From: Octopus vulgaris
Lineage: Eukaryota
NCBI GenBank assembly: GCA_951406725.2
Contig: OX597814.1
Location: forward strand, 98,518,001 to 98,582,000
Length of the DNA: 64,000 nt
Reading direction: 5' to 3'
A model generated the notes under the pieces. It saw only the letters and a list, made by a program, of their open reading frames with translations, did no database searches and was not told where the DNA came from. The translations under genes were made by a program, and so were the position numbers. Shown in pieces: positions 20,468-60,189 of this stretch; positions within the stretch are counted from its first letter, which is position 1, and the number at the start of each line of letters is the position of its first letter.

Positions 20468-20565
20468 GTTAGTTTTTACAAAATTCATAAATGCTAATGT
20501 TTTTGATTTTAGTAGCAAGTGATACTTTATGAAATAGCTAAAACAAACACCTTTTGTTGTTACAG

Positions 20566-21680: not shown

Positions 21681-22704
21681 GTAAGCCAACTAAAATCACA
21701 AACAATTTTGCCAATGGATATTTTACTTAATGATTTATGACTGTAGCTGCAGATTGATGCTGCAAGAGAGCTACTCAATTTGGTGTGCTATCTTAATCCT
21801 GTAGCATTTAAACTGGCCATATCCGGCTCAAATATTTTAGCTGTTTTATGTTGAAACTGGTCAGATCACATCTATTCTATAGTGTCATTCTAAAAATAAG
21901 AAGTCTCGTCATTGAGATTATGAAGCTAAAAGATAATGTATGATTTAGTTTGAATAGCATGAGTAATCCGAATGCTAATGGGTTAATTTTAGAAAAATGA
22001 CTTAAAATTTCAAAAGCAAAAAAATCCACAGTAATGTAAAATAATCTAAAGCAGCATGATAAAAAGAGCAGCCAACAATAGATAATTACCTTTCTTTCAT
22101 AAGGCTATTGTCAATTGTTCATATTGCAGATTACTTTTTGGATCAGCTGAGTTCACTTAAGAAATTATTTATATCTCGAAAAGTAGTTTAAGGATATAAT
22201 ATTTTAGGTTCAGTTTGTAAATCCTATCATATTTATAGAAACAATCCAATTAAAATATTGATACAAGTAACTGGACATGCTATTTACATAAATAAGATAA
22301 TTTATGTAAATAGCATGTCCAAGTGTACTGATCTTTGTACATCTATCTACAGCATCTTATGGAATGAATCTAGAACTAGTTTATATAAACGCATTTAATT
22401 TTTAAAAGAGAGCACATAAGCAGCACCCAGATCACTAATTTGAATCGTTGTTTTTTCCCTTATAGGTAGACAGGACTCCTGTAATAGACACTGGTGTGAG
22501 TGTAAATAAACAGTGTAAATAAACTAGAGACAATAATTATAGACAAGCAGATATTCTTCAGTCGAGGATGTTATCACTTTAAATTCGATACGAAAGGAAA
22601 GGATTAATTAGTTAATTGCATAATGTTTTCCACCATTCTCAAAATTAACTTAAATTACAGTAACATTAATATTTATAAACATTCTCTCTTGTAATATTTT
22701 GCAG

Positions 22705-25503: not shown

Positions 25504-26765
25504 GTTCTTTATTACCCACACAAGGCTTCTCACAGACGGGACAAATTACAAAGTAGAGCTTTTCTTGGTGGGGGGGGGGGGGTAGGCTTTCGATCAAAAG
25601 GGGTCGTAAAAGCAAAGAAAAAAACGATCAATAGGGATCGTGTATCACAGAAATGTCATGATGCAAAGTGCAAAAGGGGAAGCAGATAAGGTTTATCCGT
25701 GGAAAGAAAAGCCTACGGAAAAGACCACGGTAACCTCGGTCAATAATGTCACATGTTAACACATTTATTTGCAAGTTGGTAACTCTCTATTTAAAATTTT
25801 TCCAGGTTCATAGGATTATGCTCAAGGTGGCTTCGTCATTCATACGTGCCATCCTTGCTACATTCACCCATCTTTTTTTGAAACATTCGCTAAACAAAAC
25901 TTGCCTCTCTCCTCTCACTTTCCTTTTCAAGTGATACTTGAAGAAGTTGATGAGAGATTGACCAGAGAGGAAAGTGCTTATCTCCAATCCTTTCAGACGC
26001 GTCCACCAGATACATTCTTTCGCCATAGTATGTTGAAAATAGCTCTTCCCGTTTGAAGGAAGGAGGCGTGATGATATTGACGATAGACGGCTGATAAACC
26101 GACACGTCCCACACTTGACAGCCGTCGTTCGACATAAGCCCACAGGTCGGAAATGGTTGGACACTGCACGAGTGCGTGCAGAACAGTTTCGTCGCTCTGA
26201 CCACATCTCGGGCAGGCCGGCCCCGTGTTTCTCGAGCCGTGTCTGTAGAGCTTATCCCGAACGGGTAGCACTTCTCGGTTGCACTGCCAGGCCAGGGATC
26301 TCTGGAAGTTGTCCATGGGTCCTGGCCCGAAAGTCGTCTTGAACAGGCGGATCAGGTATTCCTCGTCGACGTCCATGTTCGCCCCGAGCTCGTCGTCGTA
26401 CCTCCCCTCCACTAATCCCCTATAGAATGCTTTGGTTGTGTTGAAGTCGCTCAAGGTCGACCCGGGACGGCATAGTTGCTTGAGAACAACGCGACACTCG
26501 CGATGCCATTCGCCCTTCCTCGGTCTCTTTTTGATCCATGACTGCAGTTCGGTCATAAAGACGAGTTGCGGGAAAGCGTGCCTCACAAACGGTGACCACA
26601 TCTGTTCACCGTCGTCTACGTAGAGCCGGAGATGTCGCAGTCTCAGCGCGTGACTGTGCATCATCAACCACGGCATGACCAGTCCTCCTTTTAACGGGTG
26701 TTGACAGCACATGGATCGCCTGACCATCGGGGCGCATCCTTTCCACAAGAAGTGGAAGAGAATGC
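25502..26765 (-). mobile_element. Tx1/L1-clade LINE, 5'-truncated (ORF2 C-terminus and 3' UTR)
   Basis: FLWKG..HPLKGGLVMP..LPVRDKL..CPRCGQSDETVLHALVQCP (zf-RVT-type CCHC). GC-rich; the 3' end aataaagaacatt abuts (GATA)n. Confidence 0.85.
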
Positions 26766-26895
26766 GGGGCTTCTTTCAGCTTCTGTGTACCGAATCCACT
26801 CACAACGCTTTGGTCGACCTGAGGTAATAATAGAAGACACCTGCCCAAGTAGCTACGCAGTGTGACCGAACCATGAGAGAGAGAGAGAGAGAAAC

Positions 26896-34830: not shown

Positions 34831-35205
34831 CGAACAGACAGTCAGCAGCGACGCCTGTCGGGTTCGGCTACTCATTGATAAAGGGAAAATATCCTGAAAC
34901 ATGTCTGTAGATGCCTGACCAGCAAGGGGAAGCAGCTGATCTCCCCTGTTCGAAGGTTATAATGGACACATATTTGTATGTCATATAGAAAGCTAGAGGT
35001 GATGGCCTCTTGAATCTAATCAACGGCAGCTTTCGTCCTATATTTATGGACTGCAATATTAGCTTGGCGATAACTGTTAACATCCAGTACCACTGCTGTA
35101 GTCTCCTTTAGAGAGACTTAGAAATAATAATATTTATATATATATGGCGGTGCCCCAGCTTGACCACAGCTCATGAGCTGAAACTGGAAAAATCAAAATC
35201 AAAAT

Positions 35206-35295
<90 letters not shown>

Positions 35296-35306
35296 ATATA
35301 CATATG

Positions 35307-35445
<139 letters not shown>

Positions 35446-35456
35446 GTATATATATA

Positions 35457-36875
35457 TCATATCATCAAGGTATTTGAGAGGGTGGTGAGATCTCGAATAA
35501 CCCAATTTCTGGAAAGCAACAGACGGCTGATCTCCAACCAACATGGGTTCCGTAATGGAAGGGACTGCCTAACGCAGCTCCTGCATCACTTTGAGGACAT
35601 TTTGAGAGCTTTGGGAGAGGGCTCCAACACCGATGTCATCTACCTTGATTTCAGTAAGGCCTTCGACAGGGTCGATCACAAGATCCTATTGAAAAAACTA
35701 TCCAGCATTGGTGTCTCTGGAAAGTTACTGAAATGGATCAAGTGTTTCCTGACAGACAGATCTCAACATGTTGTAGTTGAAGGGGTAAAATCAAGCCCAG
35801 CCAAAGTCAGTAGTGGCGTTCCGCAAGGCACTGTGCTGGGCCCACTTCTTTTCATCATTTACATTAATGACATTAATGACATCATCAAGCACAGCAACAT
35901 AAAAATCTTTGCAGATGACTCCAAGCTACAGAAGGTCATAAATGAGGCGAGTGACCGGACATGCCTTCAGTCAGATCTATTGGCTGTTATCCAATGGGCA
36001 GAAAAAAACAATATGCTGCTGAACGAGGATAAATTTGAGCTCATCCACTTTGGAAAAGAGGATGCCCTGAAACTCCCATACTCCCTTCCTTCAGGCGAAA
36101 CTCTCGCGGCGTCCAACAACATCAGAGACTTGGGAGTAATTGTGGACAACAACATAAGCTGGGCCACTCATATAAACACCAAAGTTGACATGGCCCGCAG
36201 AATGTGTTCCTGGATTCTCAGAACTTTCCAGTCGAGAGATATCCACACCATTATCCTTCTCTTCTCCACTTTTGCCCGACCCCACCTTGAATACTGTTGT
36301 CCACTGTGGTCTCCCCACACAATACAAGGTATCATAAAAGTTGAAGCACCTCAAAGGGCAATCACAAAAAAGATAGATGGCATGACAGGACTCGACGATT
36401 GGGGTCGACTAGAAAAGCTAAAACTCTATTCTCTCCAACGTCGTCGTGAGCGCTACATCATCTGCATGATGTGGAAAATATTCCATCAGCATTGCCCAAA
36501 TGATGTTGGCATCACCTTTAAGGTACATCCAAGGCTTGGGCCCCGTGCCATCCGCCCAAAACAAAAATCGCACTCTCATCTCATAACAACAATACGGCAC
36601 AATTATTTCACCTCAATTGGCCCCGCTCTCTTTAACATTACACCAAAACACATTAAAACAGAAACTGGCCCTATAGGGTTCAAGAAGTCTTGGACAGATT
36701 CCTTCAAGAAATCCCGGATAAACCCCCTACACCCGGATATGTCTCTGTAAACAATAACTTTCTACTTGAGTGGGCCATAGTGCCCAAATTCTGACTTGAA
36801 AGACTTCACCAAGTGGTGCTATTAAGTTAGACATGGCCTGGGCCAATAATGGCCGAAACCTATCAAAGTATCAAA

Positions 36876-42179: not shown

Positions 42180-42212
42180 CTATGGATCTGGGTTGCATTG
42201 GAAAAATCTCAC
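42180..42212 (-). CDS. Pif/LamG3-like protein, last coding exon
   Basis: tttctttctcattgtag|GTG AGA TTT TTC CAA TGC AAC CCA GAT CCA TAG = VRFFQCNPDP*. Completes FRGEIDY|VRFF, the typical LamG-like end, in phase 0. Confidence 0.8.
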   Translation of the reverse strand: MRFFQCNPDP

Positions 42213-42477
42213 CTACAATGAGAAAGAAACGTACAAAATGTGAACGAGTTACAATATGGCTTTGATACATTCATTTATTCATTCATTCTTCCTCTCTTTA
42301 TTTTCTTATTTCTTTCTCTCGTTCTTTCTTTGTCTTATTTTTGTCAGTTTTATATGAAAGAGAAACCAATATTGGATAGGAATAAGAATGAAATTATCAA
42401 TGCACGTGTGTATATATAGGATATCATATGTGTATGTATGTGTGCGTGTATGGATTCATATATATATACATAAATAC

Positions 42478-42540
<63 letters not shown>

Positions 42541-42544
42541 CATA

Positions 42545-42612
<68 letters not shown>

Positions 42613-44874
42613 GTATGTATTCACATATATTCACATACACACGTACATACATAGAATGAGGTGGGGAGAGGTAATCATGCAAATAAACACGTTTGGACTT
42701 GATATAGAAATACACACACACACACACATTTATATGTATATAGGGATAATACAAAATAGAATATAACAAGATTCCTGTATGAAACGTCTAAAGTTTTACT
42801 GTACAAGTTATCGGTCACTAACTTAATGATGGTGGCTATTAACCTCACTTTTAAACTATATATTTAAGATATAAGCATTTATATTGCGTAAACGAGCCGG
42901 TTATTTAACCTAGATCATTGTACATCTTCAGATATAACATATCTAAAGACATTCGATGACAGATCCCAAATAAAAGCAGTATAGGTATAGTCTCTTAAGA
43001 TTAACTTAATATTTCAAAAATGATCATCTTAAGATTTCCTTTACTGCATACCTTAAAGCTGGTTTCATAGGGTCAAAGATCAAAACAGAAGCTAAAGCTA
43101 AGAAATAGAAGAGGAGATTATTAACAGTATATATCAGAAACAAGTAATTCAGAGTGAACAGACATTCACGGTTGATTTCCGATTCAAGTACATAAAGCAT
43201 TAGTGAAGAGACTTTTAATTGACTGTTTTGTATTTGTGTAATTATAAAAACAAAAAATAATTCGAACATGAATAGACCAACCGATAGTTGGATTAACGTC
43301 ATTAGTCAGATGTAAAGCACAGCTGTTCTGTTATATGTAAGAAAACATACGAAACAATTTCTTTGCTTTACCTCAACATAAAAGAACATATATTCCGGGG
43401 CCGTTTTAACAACATTAAGAGCCACAGAGCAAATCAACTCACTGGGCACGATGCGTATATTTACTTCTTGATATCAAGCTACAGCAGAGATAGATCAGAA
43501 GTGCCCAGTGTTCACATGCCTTATGACGGCTCTGTATAATATTTAACAACTCACTAAAATTTCCATTGTAGAGAGCCGGAAAAAAATAGTTTTATCTATA
43601 AGAAAAACATCACACGCGCAATGAACAGGACTCCGAAATCGAAACTGAATGTCTGTATGCAATGAAGTGTGAGTTTGAGTTTGTAAACTACAGTGACAAC
43701 GTCAGATATGTTTTAGATTATGTAAAACCTTTTCAGTAATAAAGTAGAAACTATGCATATTTGACAATAGAAATGAATGACAAAATGGGTTGATTTTTAG
43801 CAAAACATATAAAATGTTAAACAATTTAAAAGAATTTCCTGTGCGTAGTCTTCTGCGTAAAGTACACATGGTTAAAGTGGGAAATACTAAATGAAGTGAG
43901 CCAAAGAAGTCTAAGAAAACCGTAACAAATTGTGTCACTGAAATTATTGGAAAATATTTATGCGCGCGTGTCTGAGAGCACATGCATGTGCGCATGTGTG
44001 CACAAGTGCGTGCGCGCGTGTGTATATATATGTGTGCGTGTGCATGTAAGTATATCTATATGTGTGTGTGTGTGTGTTCGTACAGGTACAAGGTGTGTGT
44101 GTGTGTGTGTGTGTACGAATATGTGTACGATGTACACGTGTATATGTATATTTTCCTTGCATCGGTCTCTCAACTTGTGACCGAATTTCATGGTCACTGT
44201 CATGACTTCATCAAAGCCTGGTGGACGTCATCCCTATCCAGGTCTAACAACAACAGATTTCTTGCAGAAAGAACCAGAGAAAGATAGAAAGAGACAAAAA
44301 TATTGAGCAAAACATTAAACTGGTATTCTGTTTCATTGACACCGAAAGGATGAACGGTAGGGTTGCTCTATGTACGATTTCAACTAAGGGTTCAGGGAGC
44401 CAGGACTATTACTGAAAGACTACTATCTAGTTCTCTAAGTAATGAATACCAAAAGAACAAGAATCACGAAATCTCTGTAACCCCTGCTCTTTTTATCATG
44501 CATTAATTGATAATGTTCTGTACTCTCCTGACGTTTTACTCTAATCTAAATAGATATAGAAAAGAAGATACATTGTGCGTTTGTGGACGTATGTATGCGA
44601 TTGTGCTTTCTTCCTACATATCAGTGTATATCTTCCTACATATCAGTGTAAATCGATACTTCGAGTTATAGAAAGGTAATGTATGGTAATTGAGAAGGCA
44701 AAAATTTGGTGATTTGATTAAATAAAGAACAATTAAAGAAGAAATTAGCATTGAGAGCCGATATTATCGATTAAGTTCCTTCGGTGTAGTGCTCCAACAT
44801 GACCTCAGTCGGATAAGTGAAACCAGTCCAAGGATAAAAGCAATAAGCAAATATATTATAGCGCTGATATTATA

Positions 44875-45075
44875 GGGTGAAATGCGTAGCAGTATTTTGT
44901 CTGCCGTTACGTTCTGAGTTCAAATTCCGCTGAGGTCGACTTTGCCTTTTACCCTTTTGGGGTCGATAAATTAAGTAGAAGTACCCAATGAGGTCGATAT
45001 CATCGACTTAACCCATCTGTCTGTCCTTGCTTGTCCCCTCTATGTTTAGCCCCTTGTGGGTAGTAAAGAAATAGA
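44875..45075 (+). mobile_element. SINE family B with tail type 1
   Basis: gaaatgcgtagcagtattttgtctgccgttacgttctgagttcaaattccgc..gccccttgtgggtagtaaagaaata. Confidence 0.8.
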
Positions 45076-45427
45076 ATACACAGCAATTGCCTGCTAATTC
45101 AATCAGTAAGTAATGCAGGTGATTAAACAACTAAATACCTAAACACTTATTATCGCAATAATCAGTGATTTATTTACCAGATTACTATTACAGCATCGGT
45201 TATAAATAAATACTTGCAGGGAATAATAACTGTATGTATTTAGTCTCACTGTGAAACTAAGGCTCATGAGAGCAAGCGCAGTAGATTTAAGCGGATCCCG
45301 ATACAGTGTTAACTAACAATGAAACCAGTCATTTCGACCCCCATCCCAAGCAACGAGAAATGCCCTTACAAGACCTAATTTTGCAGAGAGATGTGATACA
45401 TTCCCATATGACTCCAAGTATTTATGC

Positions 45428-45781
45428 AATATTCTTTTCTACTCTAGGCACAAAGCCCGAAATTTTGGAGGAGGGAGCCAGTCGATTAGATCGATCCAGT
45501 ACGCATCTGGCACTTAATTTGAACTCACAACGTAACGGCAGACGAAATACCTATTTCTACTGCCCACAAGGGGCTAAACACAGAGAGGACAAACAAGGAC
45601 AGACAAACAGATTAAGTCGATTACATCGACTCCAGTGCGTAACTGGTACTTAATTTATCGACCCCGAAAGGATGAAAGGGAAAGTCGACCTCGGCGGAAT
45701 TTGAACTCAGAACGTAACGGCAGACGAAATACGACAACGCATTTCACCCGGCGTGCTAACGTTTCTGCCTGCTCGCCGCCT
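45428..45781 (-). mobile_element. Dimeric SINE family B (monomer with tail 1 fused to a headless body with tail 2)
   Basis: Minus strand head-body-..gtgggcagtagaaata|ggtatttcgtctgccgttacgttgtgagttcaaat..ccaaaatttcgggctttgtgcctagagtagaaaagaatatt. Confidence 0.8.
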
Positions 45782-46271
45782 TAATATCTATGCAATATTC
45801 ATGCAATTCTGTTATTCTTCCTTCTATTTCGAACGAAGGAAAATGATGAATAACGTTATATATATTTTCTAAGAATTCAGGTATTTGTCAATCTACTGAA
45901 AAGGCCTCTACCCTCTATATGTAGTTTTCTCAGTTCGCTGGCAATACGCTTCTGACAAAATTCAATTTACTTTCTTAAACTAATTTCAAATTTTGGCATA
46001 AAGCCAGTAATTTTGGAGAAGGGGATAAATTGATTACATCAAACCAAGTATTCAGTTGGTACTTATTTTATCAACTCCGAAAGGATGAAAGACAAAGTTG
46101 ACCTCGGTTGGATTTGGACTCAGAGCATTTTACAGCTAAGCATTCTGCCACTAAGCATTTTGCCCGCTGTGCTAAAAATTCTTGCTGCTTTTTTACATTT
46201 CCTGTATTAAAACCAAAACTTTTATTGGGAGAATATAAGAAAGAAGTGGAAAATAAGATGTGATAAATTAC

Positions 46272-46351
46272 ATAATCTATTTCTCCTCGGAAATTTTCAT
46301 ATCCATAACCAGCACCAATTACCAAACTATTTGACTTTCCTTCAATTGTTC
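46272..46351 (-). CDS. Pif/LamG3-like protein exon (LamG-like domain)
   Basis: ttttcag|GA..TAT|gtaatt. Encodes GTIEGKSNSLVIGAGYGYENFRGEIDY (L.IG....F.G.ID motif). Confidence 0.88.
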
Positions 46352-46708
46352 CTGAAAAATGCAAAAGTAAATAACATAGATTAAATCCAATTCATTAAGA
46401 TTCGTTCCAGTTTATAGGACTGTATATATCTTTATACACGAAACAAGATATTTTAAAGAGAGGACTTGAGGACTTGGGATACGCATTTCTTTATAGGAGG
46501 ATTCTTGATAAATTAATGAAATGGATAAAACTGATTGGTAAATATCTCAACATTTGATCTCTTAACTGTGCTTGTTTCCTATAAAGAATAATTGATCGAT
46601 TAGACAATGCTTATGTTTACAGATTGATATGTAATTTTCTTTTTAAATGAATATTTTTTTCCTTTTCACACTTATTAATAACATCAAAAGAAATAATGAC
46701 AATATTAC

Positions 46709-46799
46709 CTGATACTGGTGTCTTCTGAACATAATCACCAACCTGGGCAATAAGTTGATTACCATCATATATCCACCCAACATTTTCCCAATCAGAACC
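46709..46799 (-). CDS. Pif/LamG3-like protein exon (LamG-like domain)
   Basis: ttttag|GGT..TCA G|gtaata. Encodes GSDWENVGWIYDGNQLIAQVGDYVQKTPVS (W..V...YDG..L...V motif); phase 0-1. Confidence 0.88.
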
Positions 46800-47773
46800 C
46801 TAAAACACAAGGCATTGAAGGAATATATAATAGTCAATTTACTGATTCATAAGGCACTGGGATGAAATAAAAATTCCTTTCCTATCAATATTATTGAAAA
46901 AAAATTATTATTAAAAAAAAGTAACATAAAATGAAGTTAAATATCTATAAAAATTTCATTTTAAAACCGTTATGAACATTAAGTGTAAATAGACTCTTAA
47001 AATGGTTTCATATTTTAGTACATAGTCAACAGTTTGAAAAGACGAGGAGTCACCGATTACATCGATCTCAGCATTTGAATGGTTCTTTATTTTATCGATT
47101 CCGTAAGGATGAGAGGTAAAGTTAATTTCGTGATATTTGTACTCAGAAACTGTTATAATTGCGGTTCCACAGCATGGATTCTGTCTCTGGGCTACTACAC
47201 ATAAAAAGGTAGAAGTAACATCCACAGTTATTTGCTTAGGTCATTTCACTTTTATCTTTTATCCATCAATCAATCAATCTATCCAAAAAAATCGACGGCT
47301 TGAAGATATAGAAACAGTTGAACATAAAAACCTGTAATGACAACTGAACCTTTATTTTTATTGTCTGTCTCAATATCCTATTATATTACATTTAAAATAA
47401 TGTAACTGCTTTCCACGACTGCGCTCCCTTCAATCAACGCTCACTCTCCCTCCCTCCTTCTCTCCTTCTCTCCCCCTTTCTCTCTCTCTCTCTCTACCTC
47501 TCGCTTCAATTATACATGTTCCGGTACTTAACATGTTTGTACCCTCTCTACTTTCCTCTTCTTTCTCTTACCTCTCAGCACAAACACACTTCTCCCTCCC
47601 CCTCCCCCTCCCTTTGCTGCACCCTTAAACTAACTAGCATCAAACATTCGACTTTAGCGTAATAACTATTATTTCTCCCTATTTTACTTTCTTAACACTT
47701 CCTTCTCCCTCTTCTCCCCTCACTTTTTGCCTCTCGGTTCAACTAGCTATGTGATAGCGTAACGCATTTACCA

Positions 47774-47827
<54 letters not shown>

Positions 47828-48073
47828 TTTTTGAGATTAATACAGGTTTATGCTATTTCTTTCTACGTATGTCTCACCATCGTGGTTGTTTGGAGCTCTG
47901 CATTGAATATTCCAAATCCAACTGGATATTTAAGCACAAAGGATTATCAGGGAACACTTTGTTGCATTGTCACAAAGAATTAAAATAAAAATCAAGTCAT
48001 GCTTACGAATGCGTGTTGCTTTTATCATAATGTTAATATACATGAAGATACATATAGAAAATGTTTAACTTAC

Positions 48074-48438
48074 TGAAGCTAAAATCTTGATTGATTTGTA
48101 ACCTTGTTGTAGTGTTCGAATTCCGAATTCTATATAGCTTGATGTGGCTACGATTAAAATGGATGGTGACTGCATGTTATTACTGTTGGTTATAAGAGCG
48201 TATGGTTTCATACCCAATTGGCTCTTTTCTAGGCGGTATCGAAGTGAAATGGCTATTGGAGGAATGGTATTTCCGAAATTGAATTTCGTAAGAAGTATTT
48301 GGCAATAACCATCGAACACTCCAGTGTAGTTATCTTCAGCTTCTGTGTTGTATCTAGTTGTAACGCCTTTTACGTGTAGGAATCGCGAATTGGTCTGGTT
48401 AAGACTTCGAAAGTTAATATTCACAGTTGGTTTGCAAT
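48074..48438 (-). CDS. Pif/LamG3-like protein exon (start of LamG-like domain)
   Basis: aaaag|AT..TCA|gtaagt. Encodes DCKPTVNINF..GVFDGYCQILLTKFN..IAISLRYR..ALITNS..PSILIVATSSYIEFGIRT..KILAS; phase 1-0. Confidence 0.88.
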
Positions 48439-48529
48439 CTTTTCAAAGTAAGAATTAAAAATAAGACAAAATGAAAGGATGAAAAACAAGAATTACGAAG
48501 GAATGTCTTGACATAGAGAAAACTTACAT

Positions 48530-48620
<91 letters not shown>

Positions 48621-49059
48621 CATACACACACGCACACACACTATATATATATATGTACACAAACACACACACACATATGAGTGCGTATATATATGTAGGT
48701 AGGTAGGTACGCGTGTATGTATGTATATATGTCATTATTCAGTTTTATTTCAAGATTTCTTGTCAGTAGAGGAAGAGCCGGTTTCAAGCCTAGATCCAGA
48801 GCTCCTTCATTGGAATTTCAACAACATCAACAGGGTATTTTTGCATGTATGTGCGTTTTTATGTGCAGTATTTGGAGTCAGTGTATGTGCAGACTTGTAT
48901 ATTTTGTTTTATGTATGTATTCTCATGCATATAGTTGCATGTCTAGACATGCACATATATACTTAAACGATAAACGTATAAAAAGTTTTACAAATATTTA
49001 GAGTTCCAATGATGGCTTGGATCTACAGTTTTCGAATCAGTCTTCTCCTATTTGGTTTT

Positions 49060-49330
49060 GAGACACCTAATTTCTCAAGATAGGTACTTAGGCAGTATGT
49101 TATACATACCAGTGCCCCAATAATGACAGGTATAAACTCTGGGTAGAGTAACTAATTTTTTCGATAGTTCAGCGTAGGTAGTTCCTTTTTCATTGGATCT
49201 TAGTCTTATGTTAACATTTGCTGGGCAGCTAATTTCTACTACTGTACAAAGTTTCTCTTCTTTGTCCCACATCAGTATGCCAGGTCCATTATATTCACAT
49301 TTTATGAGGCATTCACTGGGACATTGCACT
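49060..49330 (-). mobile_element. R4/Dong-clade retrotransposon endonuclease remnant
   Basis: NGPGILMWDKEEKLCTVVEISCPANVNI..NEKGTTYAEL resembles the RPD..D/E..P..EK..KY..L restriction-like endonuclease motif. Confidence 0.7.
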
Positions 49331-50964
49331 AGTAATCTAGATCAGTATGACTTCTACATACTGTGAGTTCTTAGTTCCATGTATGTATGTATGTATGTAT
49401 GTATGTATGTATGTATGTATGTATGTATGTATGTATGTATGTATGTATGTATGTATGTATGTATGTATGTATGTATCTACGTATGCATGTATGTATTCGG
49501 TTGTGCTGACTTCTACTTATAATCTAGTGACGAAAAGATGAAATATAGTTCAGAAATAGATGTTATTTACTCATGAGGCTCATGCCGAGAATCTGAAATA
49601 GCATTTCTATTCGTTCTCGATATATTCTGTCGTGGTCGAGCGTGAATATCTAATCGCTGTTAGTCGTCATTATCAGAGAACATCTCCCTTGAGACGCTAT
49701 ATGTTCATAACACACGTGATTCACCGATAAAACAAGACTTTGAGACACCACCTTCTAGAGTGTGCCCTCAGTCAAAGCTAACCCACCGGACCAATAAATC
49801 TAACGAGATTACTGACTTTGAAAATGAATACAAAAGTTACTGCTTGTTACATAATATATTGGTCTAGGCATTTTTCCAGCACTAATTTAATGGCTTTAAT
49901 GCTTCAATCCCATGTATTCAAAGAAAGAACCCTGCTTTATATTCAATCCATAGAACTTGGGTACGCTTTAAAGCTACACCTCCCTTTTCTTTCTCTGTTA
50001 CAGATATAGTCCCTGCTGCTTTCGACTACATATTCCCCCGTTTCAAGCCAACGAGGGAGACTTTACTTGCCTGCTTGACCTTGTGGAAGTAGCAGTAAAA
50101 TTTCCCTCAAATCATACTCGACTTAAAAACAATGAATATATTGGTTAATACTGGCCAATTGACACTATGTCAACAAAAGACAAAATTATCGAGTATGGAG
50201 CATTTCCAATAATAGAATTGTTGAATCAGGACTTGCCGATAACAACAATAACTGACACGTTAATTACACAACTATAAACTTGTATCTAATCTTCTTCACC
50301 TATGCTTTGTAAAGGTGAAACCTAAATCGCAGGACTCACTACTATACCTGTACATATTTTTTTTAGCGAGCACTCTAAAACTTTCTATGAATTGAAGACT
50401 TGATGACAGTTATCAATTGTTATTTAGATCTATCAATTGAAAACATAATAAACTATTCAGATCTATCAATTGAAACCACAAACATTCTCATGAATCCTAA
50501 CAAGACCACGGGTGTTACAGGGAAGAAATCATTAAAAATCCAAGTATTAGCGATAACAAGTCATGCCAACAAAGATAGTGATTAGATTATAAAATCAACA
50601 CATCTGATAGCGTGATTTACCTCCATTGTCTTAAGCAAATGACAGCCACCTAATATAGTTCATATTCTTTCACTGAGTGGCTAAAGGAAGTTCAATTTCA
50701 GCTAGCTCTAAGTCGGTACCACGAAGAGATAATGTTTACGGTTACTAATATAAATAGTACCATAAAACTGAAGAATGTCTCGTTAGCCTCGACAGGTTGT
50801 CGGGGCCTCGGAGATGGTAAAGGAAGGAAACTTACTCAATTGGTCACTTGAAGATAGGCCTTTCTGGGTGCCCTAATAACTCGATACATTAACCGAATAA
50901 CTTCTATCAGTAGGGGATAAATTAAAATTTGTATATAAAAAAAAGGATATGGAAAATAATATAC

Positions 50965-52985
50965 CTAATCCTGTTGGTCGTACTGGTGAATCTGTAGCGG
51001 TTCTTGTACAGATGCATCTTGTATTGTCTAAACGTTCTCCATTCTGACAAATTGGAGCATTTGGACAGAAGACATTAACACATCTACAGTTAATGAGATC
51101 AAGCTGCTCACCAGGTGTACATACTGGTGGCGTAATGCACTGAGTGATACATCGGCATTGCACATAATCAAATCTTTGGTTTGCATTGCAGTTGCTTACC
51201 ACGGAACAACGACTTTCACAGCGACAAGTATCGTAGTTTATTCGTTCCTCATTTCGGCAGGTTGGCAAATAATTACATTTATTTTCACATTGACATGTAA
51301 TATCATTGAACCGTTGTTTATTGACGTCACAAATTCTCACAGTTTGGCATCGAGGCTCACAGCGACAGGTATCATAATTAACTTTTTCATTTGCTCTGCA
51401 GGAAATTGCATAACCGCATTTTTCTTCGCATTGGCATGTGATATCGTTGAACTTTTGAGAAATACCACAAGACTGTACGTTTCGACAACGAGGCTCACAG
51501 CGACAGGTATCATAATTAACTTTTTCATTTGCTCTGCAGAAACTGCATAACTGCATTTTTCTTCGCATTGGCATGTGATATCGTTGAACTTTTGAGAAAT
51601 ACCACAAGACTGTACGTTTCGACAACGAGGCTCACAGCGACAGGTATCATAATTAACTTTTTCATTTGCTCTGCAGGAAACTGCATAACTGTATCATGAT
51701 ATCGTTGAACTTTTGAGAAATACCACAAGACTGTACGTTTCGACAGCGAGGCTGTATCATAATTAACTCTTTCATTTGCTCTGCAGGAAACTGCATAACT
51801 GCATTTTTCTTCGCATTGGCATGTGATATCGTTGAACTTTTGAGAAATACTACAAGACTGTACGTTTCGACAACGAGGCTCACAGCGACAGGTATCATAA
51901 TTAACTCTTTCATTTGCTCTGCAGGAAACTGCATAACTGCATTTTTCTTCGCATTGGCATGTGATATCGTTAAACTTTTGAGAAATACCACAAGACTGTA
52001 CATTTTCGACAACGAGGCTCACAGCGACAGGTATCATAATTAACTTTTTCATTTGCTCTGCAGGAAACTGCATAACTGCATTTTTCTTCGCATTGGCATG
52101 TGATATCGTTGAACTTTTGAGAAATACCACAAGACTGTACATTTTGACAACGAGGCTCACAACGACAGGTATCATAATTAACTTTTTCATTTGCTCTGCA
52201 GGAAACTGCATAACTGCATTTTTCTTCGCATTGGCATGTGATATCGTTGAACTTTTGAGAAATACCACAAGATTGTACGTTTCGACAACGAGGCTCACAA
52301 CGACAGGTATCATAATTAACTTTTTCATTTGCTCTGCAGGAAACTGCATAACTGCATTTTTCTTCGCATTGGCATGTGATATCGTTGAACTTTTGAGAAA
52401 TACCACAAGACTGTACGTTTCGACAACGAGGCTCACAGCGACAGGTATCATAATTAACTTTTTCATTTGCTCTGCAGGAAACTGCATAACTGCATTTTTC
52501 TTCGCATTGGCATGTGATATCGTTGAACTTTTGAGAAATACCACAAGACTGTACGTTTTGACAACGAGGCTCACAACGACAGGTATCATAATTAACTCTT
52601 TCATTTGCTCTGCAGGAAACTGCATAACTGCATTTTTCTTCACATTGGCATGTGATATCGTTGAACTTTTGAGAAATACCACAAGACTGTACGTTTCGAC
52701 AACGAGCCTCACAACGACAGGTATCATAATTTATCTTTTCATCATTACGGCAATACAATGTTGGGCATTTGGAAACACATTGGCATGAAATCAAATCAAG
52801 AGTTTGCGAACCACTGCATGGCTGAGTAAAAGGACAAGCTTTTTGGCATCGGCAACTTGTAGTATTCAGTCGTTCATCAGCACCGCAGTTTGGTGGATAA
52901 GCACATTTCGGCAAACACCGACAATTTTGATAATCAAGGGTTTCAGAAATTTGGCATTTTGGTATGGGAAAGCAGCGTTGCGATG
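50965..52985 (-). CDS. Pif/LamG3-like protein, giant Cys-rich repeat exon (frame broken in this sequence)
   Basis: ttgtag|CA..TTA G|gtat, phase 1-1. About 29 modules of C-x5-C-x10-C-x-C-x3. The length of 2021 nt is off-frame, matching indels of +1 (~52004), -11 (~51753), -17 (~51692) and -1 (~51539). Confidence 0.85.
51367..52735. repeat. Coding tandem repeat, 10 x 138 bp (46 aa)
   Basis: Anchor aggtatcataatt at 51367, 51505, 51642, (51752), 51890, 52029, 52167, 52305, 52443, 52581 and 52719. Unit: CRNVQSCGISQKFNDITCQCEEKCSYAVSCRANEKVNYDTCRCEPR. Confidence 0.97.
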
Positions 52986-53827
52986 CTACAAATTAAAAAT
53001 ATATAATACCATTATTTATAATAGACTCAAACTGTGACATTTTATTTTTCTATAACAAAATTATACATATATTCGTTTCAATGTTTGACACTAGGCCAGC
53101 AATTTCGGTGCGGGTGTTAGTCTCAATCGGTACTTAATTTATTGACCATAGAAAGGATGAATGACAAATTCGACCCCGTAACAATTTGAACTCAGAAAGT
53201 AAGACTGGACGAAATATCACTAAGCATGCTAACGATTCTGCTAGCTCGCCATCTTATGCATACATTGAAATACATTTTAATATATACTGTGTCTGACTAA
53301 GTATCGGGCAAGTTTCATACTGGAAATGGTCCGGATTTCTGGATTTTACTTGTAGAGACAGTTGAAATATATACTTAAAATGTATGATAAACTATATAAA
53401 GTAAAGGACAAAACTGTATTCACAAGTCAAAATAATATACTTCTAAAGCAGGATCTGCCTCATAATTATTAAACCACTTTAAAGTTTTAAAGTATATCAT
53501 ATTGCACCATGTATACGGTATAATGCTTATAGGATGAAAATTAATCCAAGACAAATTTAATAGATACAGGTACAAATTAATACACTTCTAAAACAGAGTG
53601 TTTAATCTTTTTCTATCTACTTAAAATGTAAACAACAAAGCTATTTTTAACAAACCGTATGCAAATTGACTAACAAAGCAGCTGCACGGCAAACTAGGGC
53701 TGGCGCGTGAAATTCAAAACTAGCTAATTTCAAAAATAGTCGGGTTTTGGTAATTCCGGATGTCTGGAAGCCGGATAAGACGTCGATACTGTATTACATT
53801 TAATTTAGAGACCCAAAAATATCTTAC

Positions 53828-54025
53828 ATGGAGTAGTCATACCATAGGGTGTACATTCTCGGGAATCAAGGCAAGATCCTAACATCGAATGATAAGTTCC
53901 TGAAGCTTTCAGGTCTGCACAAGGTTGAATAGAAGTTGTTATTCCATAGCTGCAGACTCCCCACATTAAACATGATGTAGAATCTGTTTGATAGACGGCA
54001 GGATTTCCCAGTGTTTTGCATTTAT
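53828..54025 (-). CDS. Pif/LamG3-like protein exon (divergent six-Cys chitin-binding-like domain)
   Basis: tttcag|AT..CCA T|gtaaga, phase 1-1. Encodes DKCKTLGNPAVYQTDSTSCLMWGVCSYGITTSIQPCADLKASGTYHSMLGSCLDSRECTPYGMTTP. Confidence 0.82.
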
Positions 54026-54080
54026 CTGAAAGAAAAGATACATTAAAATATCAAGGATAACTTTGCATTTGTAAATATAT

Positions 54081-54307
54081 ACTCTTTTACTCTTTACTCT
54101 TTGACTTGTTTCAGTCATTTGACTGCGGCCACGCTGGAGCACAGCCTTTAATCGAGCTACTCGACCCCGGGACTTATTCTTTTGCAAGCCCAGTACTTAT
54201 TCTATCGGTCTCTTTTTCCGAACCGCTAAGTTACGGGGACATAAACATACCAGCATCGGTTGTCAAGCAATGCTAGAGGGACAAACACAGACACACAAAC
54301 ACACACA

Positions 54308-54344
<37 letters not shown>

Positions 54345-54506
54345 GACGGGCTTCTTTCAGTTTCCGTCTACCAAATCCACTCACAAGGCTTTGGTCGGCC
54401 CGAGGCTATAGTAGAAGACACTTGCCCAAGGTGCCACGCAGTGGAACTGAACTCGGAACCATGTGGTTGGTAAACAAGCTACTTACCACACAGCCACTCC
54501 TGCACC
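54081..54506 (-). mobile_element. tRNA-derived SINE, family A
   Basis: Collinear with 892-1282; intronic. Confidence 0.85.
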
Positions 54507-56087
54507 TATATATATGATTATATATGTTTTACTAAATGATTTCGTGCGATGGTGACAAATAACTCTAGCAATCAGTAGAGCCATTGAATTGCTGCTAAAC
54601 ACGCATGTCTGCCAGTTCCTGTGGGCTGTATTCTGTTTTTTTTTTTGTCTTCAATACTCTCATTCATTCAGTTTTTCTATATAGCATGTTATCCTCCACA
54701 ATTTCCGCCTTTTGCATTCTGATTAAACATTCACTCGATCTTTCTCAACTTCAAAACGAAAAAAATATATTCGAAATCAATTAGACATGAGTTGCTTCGT
54801 TACCTATATTTGTCACCTTGTCATCAACAATGAGCTCGTAACTCCCTTTAAGATAGTAGTAATTCTTGAAAGAAAATACCTCACGAATTACCGAAACCCT
54901 TTTGGGAGCGATGTTGATTGGGGGAAATTCCAAAACATTCCTTTCAATACATCGCCGTAAAATTTGATGATATACGAAATTATATGCCTCGTTGATTTGG
55001 TATTATATAAACATAGAAACTGGTTTAAATCCACCTTCCATCTGTATGTATAAGCGTCGATGTTTGCTATTTGCTTAAGAACAACATTACCATTTCTCAT
55101 ACAATCTTTACCATTTTCTGTAGAAAATGCATAAAAAACAACCTGTATCTTAGGTCCCCATGGGCTAAAACATTGAAGAGTCAAGAAAAGAGCAGTAGAG
55201 AGATTGAAATGCAGTTGTTGAGTTGGAGCGAGTTTTAATGAGATACATAAAGTGTTGTCAGAAAGGCACAGCGAATTTTTGTTTTCATTCTCTTTTATCA
55301 TTTTATAGTCTTTCATCCACTAAAGACACTCACACAATCTCTCTTCCATCTACCCATTTTGTATAATACATACACACACATACACACACATACTCACATT
55401 CATTCACACTCATATATATACACACACACACATAGAAACAAACTCATGTACATAGACACACACATATATACATACATAAAAATAAACACACACAACAACA
55501 CATAAGAAAATCATTTCCTTTCATACTTACGCTTGTTTGTATTTGTGAAATACACAGGTGTTAATTTTTATAACGTTTATATAAAATTCATTAGTACTAC
55601 TGAATATTTTAGAAACATGAACACGTTTAAACGTGAAACAATTAAAGAATATATGTTCAAATATTTTCCATGATTGTCAAAAGTACATACTAAATTTTCG
55701 AAGACATGACATTTTTAAATAAAGAATTTTAATGATGATTGTATACTAACATTCCAGCGGGCGACACGTTTAAAGAAACTATGTCTAGCCACTTAGAATA
55801 AAGAACTCAAAGATAAGTCTGAGAGTGAACGTTTACCATATATTTTGGGTGGAAATCTAATGGTCTCCCGGTATTGTTAGTGTTACCGAGAGAACCCTTT
55901 AACCCTTTAGAATTTTGATTACCTTGTAAAATGTAAGGCTTATTTATTTACATTGATTTGTATTATGCAGCTTCGAGACTTTGATGATGTGATTATTTAT
56001 TTTTAGAATAACATTCAAGGGTAGGAGTATGAGATTGGATCTGGCTGGTTTGAACACAAAACAGGTAAAATATTTGGGCCAGATGTG

Positions 56088-56415
56088 GCCAGCATGGCTC
56101 AGTAGTTAGAGCGTTGGGCTCACAATCACGTGGTAGTGAGTTCGATTCCCGGACTGAGCTGTGTGTTGTGTTCTTGAACAAGTCACTTTATTTCACGTTG
56201 CCCCAGCTGTAGAAATGAGTTGCGACGTCACTGGTGCAAAGGTGAATCGGCCTTTGCCTTTCCCTTGGACAACATCAGTGACATGAAAAGGGGAGGCTTG
56301 TATGCATGAGCGACTGCTGGTCTTCCGTAAACAATATTGCTTGGACTTGTGCCTTGGAGGGTAACTTTCTCGGTACAATCCCATGGTCATTCATGACTGA
56401 AAGGGGTCTTTACCC
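56088..56415 (+). mobile_element. tRNA-derived SINE, third family
   Basis: tggctcagtagttagagcg (A box) and gagttcgattccc (B box), followed by gtgttgtgttcttgaacaagtcactttatttcac rather than a tRNA acceptor stem. A related degenerate copy lies on the minus strand at about 59340-59520. Confidence 0.75.
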
Positions 56416-57348
56416 TAAGTAAATATAATTTGATATCACTATATACACATTTAAATGTAAAACAATGAAAAACTATTGGTGTAATGACCTTCTCTAGACA
56501 CAACATAATAAAGAAATTGTTTCCGATAATCCATATTATTTGAAACTATATACTAACTTTTTGAAGACGGCTCTGGAACAATGCTGATAGTCGAAGTTCA
56601 TTTCAGAGCCCTACACCAGTTGCTTGCTATGTCTGTGCAACATACCATGAAGTCATTTACGTTTACCAAAAAAAAAAAGATAATAATAATAATGAAGCAG
56701 TTCCTCCAGGGTCTGCACCCGTTGTACGTCAGGTGAGAAAGCAACTTCATAATGTTAATGTGATTCAAAGTATTTGTTTTTACCCTTTCTTCCAATTTCT
56801 TTCATTCTTTCATAGATTTCAGCCAAAAGGCTGCAACCATGCTGGAGCACCGTTAGTGTAGTCACCTTTTCAATGGCCATTCTTATACGATTAACTTTTA
56901 GTGAAGTAGTGTGTTTGACGTTGCTAGCTTCTTTTCAGTTTCTTACCGTGACATAGGTTCATCTAAGACCTTGGGGAGAAAGAAATCTAGTTGTTTCTTC
57001 AAAACAAACATCTACTCCTACTAGAAGATCCCTCAGATGTTTTGGCAAGGCATTACATAGCTGTGGGCCCTTGAATCCCAAGCGTTTGCAGTACATGGTC
57101 CTCACTCTAGACGGAGTAGATGAGACCTTTGGCCAGCATATTCACTTTTAAAATACCTGTTAAGTCTTTGTAAAATAAAAATACACTTTTGTTAAACAGC
57201 TTATCAATTATCATACGCTTCCTAACACTCATACCACTGTCTTAGGTAAATAATCATCATTTCTATAATATGCGTTCACCATTGTTAAATGAGCCGACAA
57301 AGGAAACTCAATGATATCGTTAGATCTGCTAGAAACTAGTCATATCTC

Positions 57349-57803
57349 GGATCTTTTCGGTTTGAACGGCAGTTTTTAACATAATTTCTAGGTAACTAAA
57401 AAATTTTAAACTTCGTATACTGGTAGAACGTGTTTATAAAATATCTTTTTCTCTTGGCTTTATTGAGAAAATTCTATAGTTTGTAAGATATTTGGTCTTT
57501 AATTTCTTGCATTTCGACAATTTCAACCAATCAAAGACCGTCTATTGAGGTGAAAACATTCTGTGCCGTATGAATATGTCCCTCGTTTAAGAAACAGATT
57601 GGGTTTATTTACATTTGTGAAGAAACAAATATACCCTTCCCCCCACCCCTAACCCTAACCCTAACCTTAACCCTCACTAACCCTAACTAACCCTAACCCT
57701 AAAACAGATTGAAGTGCAATAGATCGATTCTAGGGTCATAATTATGGGTGACAATTTCATATGACACCGCTAGAAAAAACTGCCGTTCAAACCGAAAAGA
57801 TCC
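57349..57803. mobile_element. MITE, 455 bp, 29-bp perfect TIRs, 8-bp TSD, internal (CCCTAA)n
   Basis: ggatcttttcggtttgaacggcagttttt / aaaaactgccgttcaaaccgaaaagatcc. Flanks catatctc and cacatctc. Telomere-like hexamers at 57647-57702. Confidence 0.9.
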
Positions 57804-59590
57804 CACATCTCTCAGAAATATGCTCTATCGTGTTAAACAAAGGTACCCGTTGGATAATGATAATGTATTCCATGCGCTACCTATGTCCCCTACACATAGA
57901 GAACAGGCAGGATGGTCTCGGCTAAAATGTCTTTAATCATAGGTCTGTTTATAGTAGTCTTTATATGCATTTACTATTTGCCTATGTATGTGTACATTCG
58001 TTTTGAGCGCGTGCTTGTGTGTAGGTGTATGTGCGAGCGCATGAAATTGAAGGCGTAAAAGTTTCTCTTTTATATTCGCATAGACCGTATGTTGCTACCC
58101 TACCTTTGTATGAGCTAATGAATTTTTTAAACGTTTTGACCTTGGTGACATTTCTCTCACAAACCTTTGTCTTGCTACACCTCATTTTAACCACCACTCT
58201 TCCCAGATCATTTCCTACCTCACGTACTTTTCTGTGTTGTTATGACATAGTATACTTATGTGCAAGCGTAGACATATGCATATGTATTCATATATACGCA
58301 TCTGTATATGTCAGATGCGTTCGTAAGTGTGTTTAAGTATTCGAATGTCTACTTATGTGTGCGTGCGTGTGTGTATGTGCGAATGTTGGATATGTGTGTG
58401 CATATATACATAATGTCGTTTCTAAGTAACTTGTCAACGGCTTTTCCTTCCTCTCTATTCCCTGTTACTCTTGTCTTATGACGTACCACCATTCTCTCTA
58501 CTTGATCTCCTGTCCCTACATACGCCGTTTCTATATTTTTCAGACATTCATATCATATCTATTTTCTTTCTTGACGAAGAAGACGAAAAACACTTTTGGT
58601 CAAAGTGCTTGGATTTATTTTATTTTTTTTTAATGTTAATAATCTCATTCTTATCGACTGAGAGCGTCACTAACTTCGTTTCACTTTAATACTTAAGTTT
58701 TTTTTTAAAAATCTAAATAGAGTTATAAGCCTACATCGCATCAAAAAATACTTCAACTCTTACTAGATATTAACCTTTCCTAAACATGTAATAAGACCGC
58801 CATTGGAGTAGATCTTCTCTTGCTTATGAGACAAGTGCCCATTGTTACACCCTGTAAAGCGTTCTACATCATATCCAAAATAAGGTGATGCAGTTGATTA
58901 ATAAAGATCAACTCACCAGCATGCTACAATCCCAGCTAAAAAGGAAGTTTCTTCTTTCTATCTTGTCTACAATACTACAATGATCTCAGTTTGTTTAAAC
59001 TAGCAGGCGCAGCAGACCACCTTTATCCAAATAGATCAGACAATTCACTCTCTTGCTCCTAAGTTTTTTTTTTGTTTTTTTTTACTGAGTTTCATCACAT
59101 CTTGGTTCCACAATACACATGTTACACAGTCATTCCTCTACAGAGCTGCAGCCCTTCAAATTCCTTCTTTCCGCTCGTTCTGCTTTTAAATATACGAAAA
59201 AAGAACTGAACATCAACCGCGGAGAGCTTGAAAATGTCATTTATTCACTATCCTTCCTCTCCTGTGGCTAAGTAATGGACATTATTGTTCCAAGCCCTTT
59301 GACTCGTAATTTCAGTTACCCAGTTTCCTTGACATATTAGTTACTGAGATCACAACGTCTCCCTTGAACGGGATGCTTCTCCATTGCATCGTTACTAATT
59401 TACGGCGGAATGGACGGGAGCAACCTAAAATGAAGTGTTTTGCTCAAGAACACAGCGGTCCACGAACCGAAACCACGATCTTGTGATCATAAATGTAAGA
59501 CCTTAACTACTAGGTTACGCACGTCCATTAAATAATAATAAAGGAGTGCTAATATACAAATAAAAACAGTAAATAAGAAATCATACTTAC

Positions 59591-59785
59591 CGTTAGCACA
59601 GTTAACGTTCCATGGGTAATCGCATGTGAATGCTTTATCATTCCAAAAGCGGCCTCGGGCACAGGACATGACGACACCTAAATAATTACCACTGCTCAAC
59701 TGGCTACATGATACATATTTGGTGCAATCGGACGGATGAGCATTGTAATAAATCTTGTTGGAAAATCGGTTACTGTCACAGGCAT
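59591..59785 (-). CDS. Pif/LamG3-like protein exon, chitin-binding peritrophin-A (ChtBD2/CBM14) domain
   Basis: ttaacag|AT..AAC G|gtaagt, phase 1-1. Encodes ACDSNRFSNKIYYNAHPSDCTKYVSCSQLSSGNYLGVVMSCARGRFWNDKAFTCDYPWNVNCAN (HP.DC.KY..C..M.C..G..W.....CD.P..V.C). Confidence 0.93.
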
Positions 59786-60189
59786 CTGTTAAGGAAAAAA
59801 AAACACTTTTGTATTAAATTTTTGAACTTACACTCTGTACTTGTTTATACTCTTACTAATTTAGCTTAAATATGATTTATTCTAAAACAGTTATGCTCGG
59901 AGAAATAAAATATCCATAAAATTGTATTGAGTTTCGTAGAAAATTGAGATGAAAAAGGCATTAATTAATAAACTTGGAATCAATTTACTAAATGCGTTTC
60001 AACTTCGAAATAGTATGATTAAATGTTACGTTTTGCTCTATAAACAGTGATTACTTCGTTTGATTAAAATAACAGTCTACTTGAGAAGTAAACAATACCA
60101 CCAGAAGACTTTTGGCTATTACAAATAACTGCTAAAACACACACCGTTGATCTGGAAATAAATAACAATAACAATAACACATTTTGATA

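What the first reader, a model, noticed from the sequence alone, without database searches (positions are those of the whole stretch)
42180..59785. Pif/LamG3-like chitin-matrix protein with an inserted array of about 29 silk-like Cys modules
Seen: seven phase-compatible exons give ChtBD2, a divergent six-Cys domain, about 670 aa of C-x5-C-x10-C-x-C-x3 modules (about 116 Cys) and a LamG-like C-terminus. Established: chitin-binding domains followed by a C-terminal LamG-like domain is the architecture of molluscan Pif/BMSP/LamG3 matrix proteins. C-x10-C-x-C-x(1,3)-C is the Balbiani-ring-3 / VEGF-C,D silk-homology (CXCXC) motif. Inference: I do not know a Pif-family protein that combines these. 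It could be a disulfide-rich rod or cross-linker for a chitinous structure such as beak, radula, sucker cuticle, stylet or statolith matrix. The ORF track shows it only as fragments.
Basis: partly seen in the sequence, partly recalled or inferred. Interest (0 to 1): 0.75.

Follow-up and report, generated by a model that had tools for sequence, protein, structure and literature searches.

The report
Octopus chitin-matrix protein with silk-like spacer
An octopus gene of the mollusc shell-matrix Pif/LamG3 family is spliced into one message in which the usual third chitin-binding-type domain is replaced by a variable run of cysteine-rich silk-like repeats, so the protein likely acts as a stretchable tether between chitin and another partner.

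Summary
The gene is real. All seven exons sit on the minus strand and are spliced together in RNA-like contigs. Two more coding exons (signal peptide, NGGxxT[QR] heptads) lie upstream of the window. Exon 3 is not phase-compatible as assembled: its 29 modules carry four indels inside near-identical 138-bp units, most likely assembly errors. Open-frame orthologues in Octopus bimaculoides and Argonauta hians have 15-19 modules and are auto-named 'balbiani ring protein 3-like'. Domain order, LamG fold, intron phases and a tree place it in the Pif/BMSP/LamG3 family. The array replaces the third chitin-binding-like domain; that domain's closing C-x10-C-x-C motif stands at this place in 36 of 38 relatives. 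A whelk (Nucella) Pif protein also carries a CXCXC array and the same heptads, in another order, so the combination is not unique. Nine literature searches found no description. Likely role: a disulfide-stapled, variable-length tether on chitin; tissue and binding are untested. The scan had not noted this gene on other DNA. Verdict: new variant of a known family.

The parts
59591..59785 (-). Exon: chitin-binding domain 1 (CBM_14/ChtBD2), phase 1-1
   Evidence: Pfam CBM_14 E 1.1e-9; spliced to 54025 in 4 of 4 runs laid; 59/64 identical to O. bimaculoides
53828..54025 (-). Exon: second, divergent chitin-binding-like domain of the Pif family, phase 1-1
   Evidence: No Pfam hit; aligns with the second domain of Pif relatives; family profile E 4e-13, though that profile held the orthologue in its seed; donor 53828 in 4 of 4 runs
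50965..52985 (-). Exon: array of 29 C-x5-C-x10-C-x-C-x3 modules, phase 1-1, in the place of the third chitin-binding-like domain; four indels as assembled
   Evidence: Pfam CXCXC; both ends spliced; one beta-hairpin per module predicted
51380..52731 (-). Near-identical tandem core: ten units of nominally 138 bp (two modules each), 7 of 10 intact, differing by 1-6 bases; holds all four indels
48074..48438 (-). Exon: LamG domain, first part (phase 1-0)
   Evidence: 116/121 identical to O. bimaculoides, 93/121 to A. hians; joints in 3 of 3 RNA-like runs, none in the fourth, DNA-like run
46709..46799 (-). Exon: LamG domain, second part (phase 0-1)
46272..46351 (-). Exon: LamG domain, third part (phase 1-0)
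42180..42212 (-). Last coding exon: final 10 residues and stop
   Evidence: 10/10 identical to both orthologues; loose contig ends at 46270 read this exon in 3 of 3 RNA-like runs

Best explanation
This is a spliced, single-copy octopod member of the Pif/BMSP/LamG3 matrix-protein family whose third chitin-binding-like domain is replaced by 15-29 tandem four-cysteine modules; it is likely secreted, likely grips chitin with its N-terminal domain(s), and the predicted disulfide-stapled hairpin array would hold the LamG end at a species-specific distance as an extensible tether in a chitin-containing epithelial matrix. Shown: exon joints, domain order, family placement, LamG fold model, loss of the third domain, module-number variation. 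Inferred: secretion (hydrophobic N-terminus read by eye, no predictor run), chitin binding, disulfide pairing, spacer mechanics, the LamG partner, the tissue, and that the four indels are assembly errors.
For: Splicing: three joints in 3 of 3 RNA-like runs and 0 of 1 DNA-like run; two joints in 4 of 4 runs plus loose ends that read the upstream exons in 2 of 4. Within each run the 5' and 3' contigs have similar depth (984/1016, 319/348, 487/544; a hint only). Orthologues: open frames of 776, 822 and 882 aa with 15, 17 and 19 C-x-C modules. Family: 83 hits to the LamG domain; of 37 scanned, 27 carry CBM_14; all 17 named among 20 looked up are molluscan, including Lottia proteins reported as Pif/BMSP-like shell proteins (PMC3374290 passages). 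Tree: inside a 45-row clade at 100/100 and a 31-row subclade at 96/90. Fold: pLDDT mostly 80-94 over the LamG part; best Z 17.5 (rmsd 2.9, 178 aligned), laminin/neurexin LG domains Z 12-13. Domain 1 keeps the family's C-x-x-G-x-x-W-N-x5-C-D-Y hairpin. The own-genome paralogue on C8 has the same LamG intron phases and a phase 1-1 third-domain exon where this gene has the array. Analogy: octovafibrin, lectin-29 EGF-lectin, gains toughness from its disulfide-constrained repeats (PMC10336842, abstract and passages). Indel at 51539: contigs with the extra base make up 4589.8 of 4593.9 depth in X1 and all of it in X11.
Against: No tissue label, proteome hit or binding assay was obtained. The runs are only guessed to be RNA. 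No contig bridges the repeat. Three of the four indels were not tested with reads, and at the fourth, other units map to the same place. The second domain lacks one cysteine of the family's CC pair and its last cysteine and has no Pfam hit, so it may not bind chitin. The array has no Trp. The array model has low pTM (0.42), so rod versus flexible chain is open. The branch is long (1.51) and its subfamily is unresolved. Many Pif/LamG3 genes have no known function (PMC10543319 passages).
Confidence: 0.55

Rival explanations
1. Function rival: a self-assembling fibre or cement protein (egg string, adhesive, mucus thread) that works like octovafibrin or BR3-type adhesive proteins, with chitin binding secondary.
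For: Same layout as octovafibrin: glycan-binding-type end domains around a disulfide repeat array. BR3-like cassettes occur in barnacle, byssus and sea-star adhesives (PMC12817120 passage).
Against: [quoted passage not shown] The CBM_14 domain is well conserved.
Confidence: 0.15
2. Function rival: a mineral-matrix protein (statolith, stylet, argonaut eggcase) as for canonical Pif/LamG3.
For: A canonical LamG3 is in the A. hians eggcase proteome (bioRxiv 2021.07.10.451900 passages; PMC9635652 section 8). A carbonic anhydrase gene is the neighbour in the window.
Against: That eggcase protein is described as three ChtBD plus LamG3, without an array. The array is not acidic (K+R 47 vs D+E 41). The carbonic anhydrase search gave 33 exon matches on 8 contigs, so adjacency means little.
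Confidence: 0.12
3. The indels are real: the sequenced animal carries a broken allele, or the long form is decaying in this species.
For: Four indels in one exon, net out of frame. The public model matching the window (P0004) is 392 aa and starts inside the array; the current O. bimaculoides model is also short, 421 aa.
Against: All indels lie in the near-identical core. Other exons have no stop and are 92-100% identical to O. bimaculoides. Transcripts are correctly spliced on both sides. The -1 form is not seen in two runs.
Confidence: 0.15
4. Origin A: the array arose in place by tandem amplification of the C-x10-C-x-C hairpin that ends the third chitin-binding-like domain.
For: 36 of 38 relatives carry a C-x10-C-x-C motif before LamG, most 7-21 residues from it; the last module lies 16 residues from it and its three cysteines align with that motif in at least 90% of 25 rows. 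A complete third domain is missing from 144 kb around the gene, while both paralogues have it. The exon has the same phase 1-1 slot. A hydrophobic residue followed by N/D is shared; similarity beats column shuffles (1 of 300 reach it).
Against: Mean score to third-domain ends is only -2.2 against +3.9 to Nucella modules. A third-domain profile scores the modules at 2.2 bits or less. Nucella has an array and an intact third domain.
Confidence: 0.4
5. Origin B: a BR3P/CXCXC array was brought in by exon shuffling, possibly shared with the Nucella proteins in an old Pif sub-lineage, and displaced the third domain.
For: Octopod modules resemble Nucella modules more than third-domain ends (0 of 300 shuffles reach the score); the last Nucella modules have octopod-like spacing. 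NGGxxT[QR] heptads occur in 5 of 101 proteins held: three octopod and two Nucella. An octopod+Nucella clade is not rejected (AU p 0.535).
Against: The clade is not supported either; both are long branches. Domain order differs in two places. No second array was found in the own genome. Low-complexity repeats converge easily.
Confidence: 0.5

Closest known systems
LamG3 (Pif-like) proteins of molluscs, e.g. argonaut and octopus LamG3, Lottia 236718, chiton 'protein PIF-like'
   Same: Chitin-binding domains then one C-terminal LamG, no VWA (definition in PMC10543319 passages); homologous first and second domains; LamG groups with them.
   Different: Third chitin-binding-like domain absent, replaced by 15-29 four-Cys modules; N-terminal NGGxxT[QR] heptads; long branch, only 23-35% identity in LamG to the other hits.
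PifCCP (Sushi-repeat Pif) and TSP1-repeat Pif proteins
   Same: Pif-family proteins lengthened by an array of small disulfide modules (PMC11291548 passages; P0019, P0086, P0024, P0069).
   Different: Their arrays are Sushi or TSP1 domains upstream of the chitin-binding block, and the third domain's motif is kept.
Nucella lapillus KAL8620138.1 / KAL8584787.1 (hypothetical proteins)
   Same: Pif core plus CXCXC array plus NGGxxT[QR] heptads.
   Different: Two VWA domains; array before the chitin-binding domains; mostly 19-residue C-x10-C-x-C-x-C period; third domain intact; heptads at the C-terminus. Database entries only; no description found.
Balbiani ring protein 3 / VEGF-C,D silk-homology (BR3P, Pfam CXCXC PF03128)
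   Same: Motif C-X10-C-X-C-X(1,3)-C (PMC10328876 passage) is met; Pfam over cut-off.
   Different: 23-residue period with a 5-residue link; no growth-factor domain; bracketed by chitin-binding and LamG domains. The database name 'balbiani ring protein 3-like' reflects the repeat only.
Octovafibrin (O. bimaculoides egg-tether protein)
   Same: Lectin-type end domains around a long array of disulfide-constrained repeats.
   Different: EGF repeats with three disulfides and C-type lectins; an analogy of layout, homology not tested.

Membership tests
Pif/BMSP/LamG3 family | CBM_14 chitin-binding domain | tested here: met
   E 1.1e-9, over cut-off
Pif/BMSP/LamG3 family | C-terminal LamG/ConA-like domain homologous to the family's | tested here: met
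   phmmer hits, ESM features 0.97 to Laminin_G_3, fold Z 17.5. No Pfam LamG hit on the protein itself.
Pif/BMSP/LamG3 family | LamG groups with family members against prokaryote-type LamG3 | tested here: met
   45-row clade 100/100 among 58 rows
Pif/BMSP/LamG3 family | Shared intron positions and phases with a canonical paralogue | tested here: met
   C8 paralogue, LamG exons 1-0, 0-1, 1-0; boundaries read from DNA, not from transcripts
LamG3 subgroup | Chitin-binding plus LamG domains, no VWA | tested here: met
   No VWA in the full-length orthologues
LamG3 subgroup | Three consecutive chitin-binding-type domains (as in argonaut LamG3) | tested here: not met
   Third-domain profile finds it in both paralogues, not in this gene
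LamG3 subgroup | Orthology with published cephalopod LamG3 (Aargo013232, Ocbimv22010162m) | not tested
   Those sequences were not fetched; subfamily unresolved
Pif (Pif97-type) and BMSP | One or more VWA domains | tested here: not met
Pif/BMSP/LamG3 family | Present in a mineral or chitin matrix; binds chitin | not testable with these tools
   No tissue labels; supplement look-ups gave nothing usable
BR3P / CXCXC repeat | C-X10-C-X-C-X(1,3)-C repeats; Pfam PF03128 over cut-off | tested here: met
BR3P / CXCXC repeat | Common descent with BR3/VEGF-C repeats rather than origin from the third chitin-binding domain | tested here: inconclusive
   BR3 and VEGF-C sequences themselves were not compared
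Antistasin protease-inhibitor repeats | Antistasin fold and six-Cys unit (unit size recalled, from no call) | tested here: inconclusive
   Only Z 2.3, rmsd 3.1 over 41 residues; no Pfam hit; modules have four Cys

The most novel reading that the evidence does not exclude
The silk-homology (BR3P) module, whose origin a review calls unknown (PMC5816233), is a stripped-down chitin-binding-domain hairpin. This octopod gene records that birth: the end of the third chitin-binding domain was amplified into a 15-29-mer whose hairpins each keep weak glycan affinity, giving a multivalent, extensible chitin zipper that octopods tune by repeat number, with a parallel or shared invention in whelks.
Probability: 0.15. 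Interest if true: 0.75.

Novelty: new variant of a known kind. Interest (0 to 1): 0.48.

Why it matters
Shell-less octopods keep Pif-family genes for unknown reasons (PMC9635652 section 8). This one has been rebuilt into a tether-like protein that public annotation hides: it is named after its repeat and is cut short in two public gene models. It is a concrete candidate for a soft chitin-matrix or biomaterial component, can be compared directly with octovafibrin mechanics, and gives a testable handle on where the BR3P repeat came from. It does not define a new kind of system: Pif proteins with module arrays are known.

Tried and rejected
Word-based homologue searches: the LamG exon found 2 of 195 candidates, the chitin-binding region 2 of 35, the array 3 of 1099, the third an unnamed JGI CXCXC protein. 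No squid, cuttlefish or Nautilus orthologue appeared; these searches miss distant relatives, so octopod restriction is suggested, not shown. PDB sequence searches: nothing significant for LamG, 0 hits for the array. Array fold searches: no Foldseek match at E<=0.001, one VIA row at Z 2.3; no CBM14 structure was listed, which neither supports nor excludes origin A. ESM Atlas for the array: best 0.77, a cluster with 22% CBM_14, at chance level. Pfam CXCXC search of the own genome rang nowhere, not even at this locus, so it is uninformative. No holder was on record as RNA and no tissue was given. Summed contig depth in the repeat was not used as a copy number. Neurotoxin binding domains at the top reflect the shared ConA-like jelly-roll at 7-13% identity; a toxin reading was rejected. 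Pfam hits Macscav_rec, DUF538 and Epiplasmin on the array were rejected as repeat artefacts. Identity with octovafibrin was rejected on size and domains. Literature searches found no paper on this protein; accessions gave 0 papers. One skin-mucus proteome supplement could not be read and the bioRxiv argonaut eggcase supplements are closed; either could list this protein. Rows left out of trees: P0003, P0005, P0089, P0031 and hits covering under 100 profile columns; only 27 rows with both regions.
Full report
Observation. The region holds a minus-strand gene in an AT-rich, microsatellite-laden animal genome of 2.8 Gb. Exon 1 scores as CBM_14 and exon 3 as CXCXC, both over the Pfam cut-off; 3 of the 7 pieces scanned had a hit over cut-off. 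Exon 3 holds 27 intact and 2 damaged modules of the form C-x5-C-x10-C-x-C-x3. It is 2021 nt long and carries four indels, all within ten near-identical units of nominally 138 bp. As assembled the reading frame does not run through, which is why the ORF track shows fragments.

Splicing and extent. Twenty of 24 listed runs hold the exon; none is on record as RNA, 16 of the 20 are guessed to be. I laid five of them. On 46200-51560, three RNA-like runs from three studies show the three expected GT-AG joints and loose ends that read the last exon; the large DNA-like run shows none. On 52700-59900, four of four runs show both joints in a single contig. Loose ends in two of these runs read a 21-nt microexon and the exon before it. 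These lie outside the window, about 70350 and 71824 in window-equivalent numbering, and encode a hydrophobic N-terminus and NGGDQT[QR] heptads. The gene therefore has nine coding exons. No contig bridges the repeat core. At the one indel covered, nearly all depth in two runs carries the base that the assembly lacks, but other units map there too. The other three indels were not tested. With intact flanking exons I put assembly error at about 0.85.

Orthologues. O. bimaculoides XP_014775857.1 and XP_014775856.1 (776, 822 aa) and A. hians GAB1597588.1 (882 aa) have the same domain order in open frames with 15, 17 and 19 modules; all are auto-named 'balbiani ring protein 3-like'. Two further public models are short (421 and 392 aa) and start inside the array. 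No other copy was found in the own genome. No decapod orthologue appeared in three word-based searches, and none was recognised among the 20 profile-library hits looked up by name; this is weak evidence of absence.

Family. The C-terminal 189 residues find 83 proteins. Of 37 scanned, 27 carry CBM_14, many with VWA, Sushi or TSP1. All 17 named among 20 looked up are molluscan, three of them reported as Pif/BMSP-like shell proteins of Lottia (PMC3374290, passages). The AlphaFold model of the domain is confident and matches ConA-like/LamG folds, best Z 17.5. In a 58-row tree it lies within the Pif-family clade (100/100) on a long branch; a 27-row tree with the chitin-binding region added did not resolve its subfamily. 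The own genome has two paralogues that keep three chitin-binding-type exons before LamG, on C8 (with VWA) and C14 (upstream part not examined). The C8 gene has the same LamG intron phases. By the definition 'CB and LG domains, no VWA' (PMC10543319, passages) the gene is LamG3-type; by the three-ChtBD layout of argonaut LamG3 (bioRxiv 2021.07.10.451900, passages) it is a variant.

What is different. In 36 of 38 relatives examined a C-x10-C-x-C motif stands shortly before LamG, in most with the preceding cysteine about 26 residues upstream: the end of the third chitin-binding-like domain. A profile of that domain finds it in both paralogues and not in this gene. The array exon fills the same phase 1-1 slot, and the last module aligns with that motif. 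So the array replaces the domain. Each module is predicted as one beta-hairpin (pLDDT about 77, pTM 0.42), with no known fold matched. Among the 83 hits one other protein has such an array: Nucella lapillus KAL8620138.1, with a paralogue, where about 18 CXCXC modules lie between VWA and the chitin-binding block and the third domain is kept. These two and the three octopod proteins are the only 5 of 101 held proteins with NGGxxT[QR] heptads. Octopod modules resemble Nucella modules more than third-domain ends (+3.9 vs -2.2). A joint clade is neither rejected nor supported (p 0.535). Origin by import or sharing (0.5) and by in-place amplification (0.4) both remain open.

Mechanism. Inferred, not shown: the protein is secreted, binds chitin by domain 1, which keeps the family's aromatic hairpin, and presents LamG to a glycan, protein or a second copy. 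Between them the four-Cys hairpins, presumably two disulfides each, form a spacer whose length differs between species. Octovafibrin, an unrelated-looking octopus protein with lectin ends and 29 EGF repeats, shows that such arrays add stiffness and toughness (PMC10336842, abstract and passages). Canonical LamG3 is highly expressed in argonaut arm and mantle epithelia, which favours an epithelial matrix, but no tissue data exist here for this gene. Fibre/cement and mineral-matrix roles are the rivals.

Novelty. Module arrays in Pif proteins are known (PifCCP; PMC11291548, passages). The BR3P motif is known and its origin is called unknown (PMC10328876 and PMC5816233, passages). Passages read in five cephalopod and mollusc Pif papers (PMC9635652 section 8 and passages; PMC13076209; and the three above) do not mention this architecture, and nine searches found no paper on it; subscription papers and two unreadable supplement sets were not covered. 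The scan's own notes had nothing on it by words or sequence; three notes on other octopus chitin-tailed proteins with variable rods are a parallel, untested here. Verdict: new variant of a known kind, interest 0.48.

Noticed in passing
window ~3406-3594, 6034-6192, 20372-20473, 21522-21698 (+): Exons of an alpha-carbonic anhydrase gene, convergent with the Pif-like gene; one of many such loci in the genome.
   Followed up: partly
P0040 / P0088 (Nucella lapillus): Pif-family proteins with two VWA, a CXCXC array, three chitin-binding-type domains, LamG and C-terminal NGGxxT[QR] heptads; no description found.
   Followed up: partly
L023-L026 (G000:C8:48.72-48.74 Mb, -): Canonical paralogue VWA-CB-CB-CB-LamG, 52-82% identical by exon to A. 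hians 'protein PIF-like'.
   Followed up: partly
L027-L029 (G000:C14:56.54-56.56 Mb, -): Second paralogue with three chitin-binding-type exons and the start of LamG.
   Followed up: partly
P0047 (Bradybaena similaris): LamG3-type protein with the third domain apparently tandemly triplicated (motifs at 312, 365, 416), showing that this slot is prone to duplication.
   Followed up: no
P0091 (unnamed JGI protein): A CXCXC array in an unnamed protein without chitin-binding or LamG hits.
   Followed up: no
window 57647-57702: Short degenerate CCCTAA (telomere-like) run inside the intron between exons 1 and 2.
   Followed up: no
window ~15473-16170, 25996-26775, ~35182-36750; L002, L006: Transposon remains: mariner-like transposase frames and LINE reverse-transcriptase frames, named by eye except the zf-RVT hit.
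   Followed up: no
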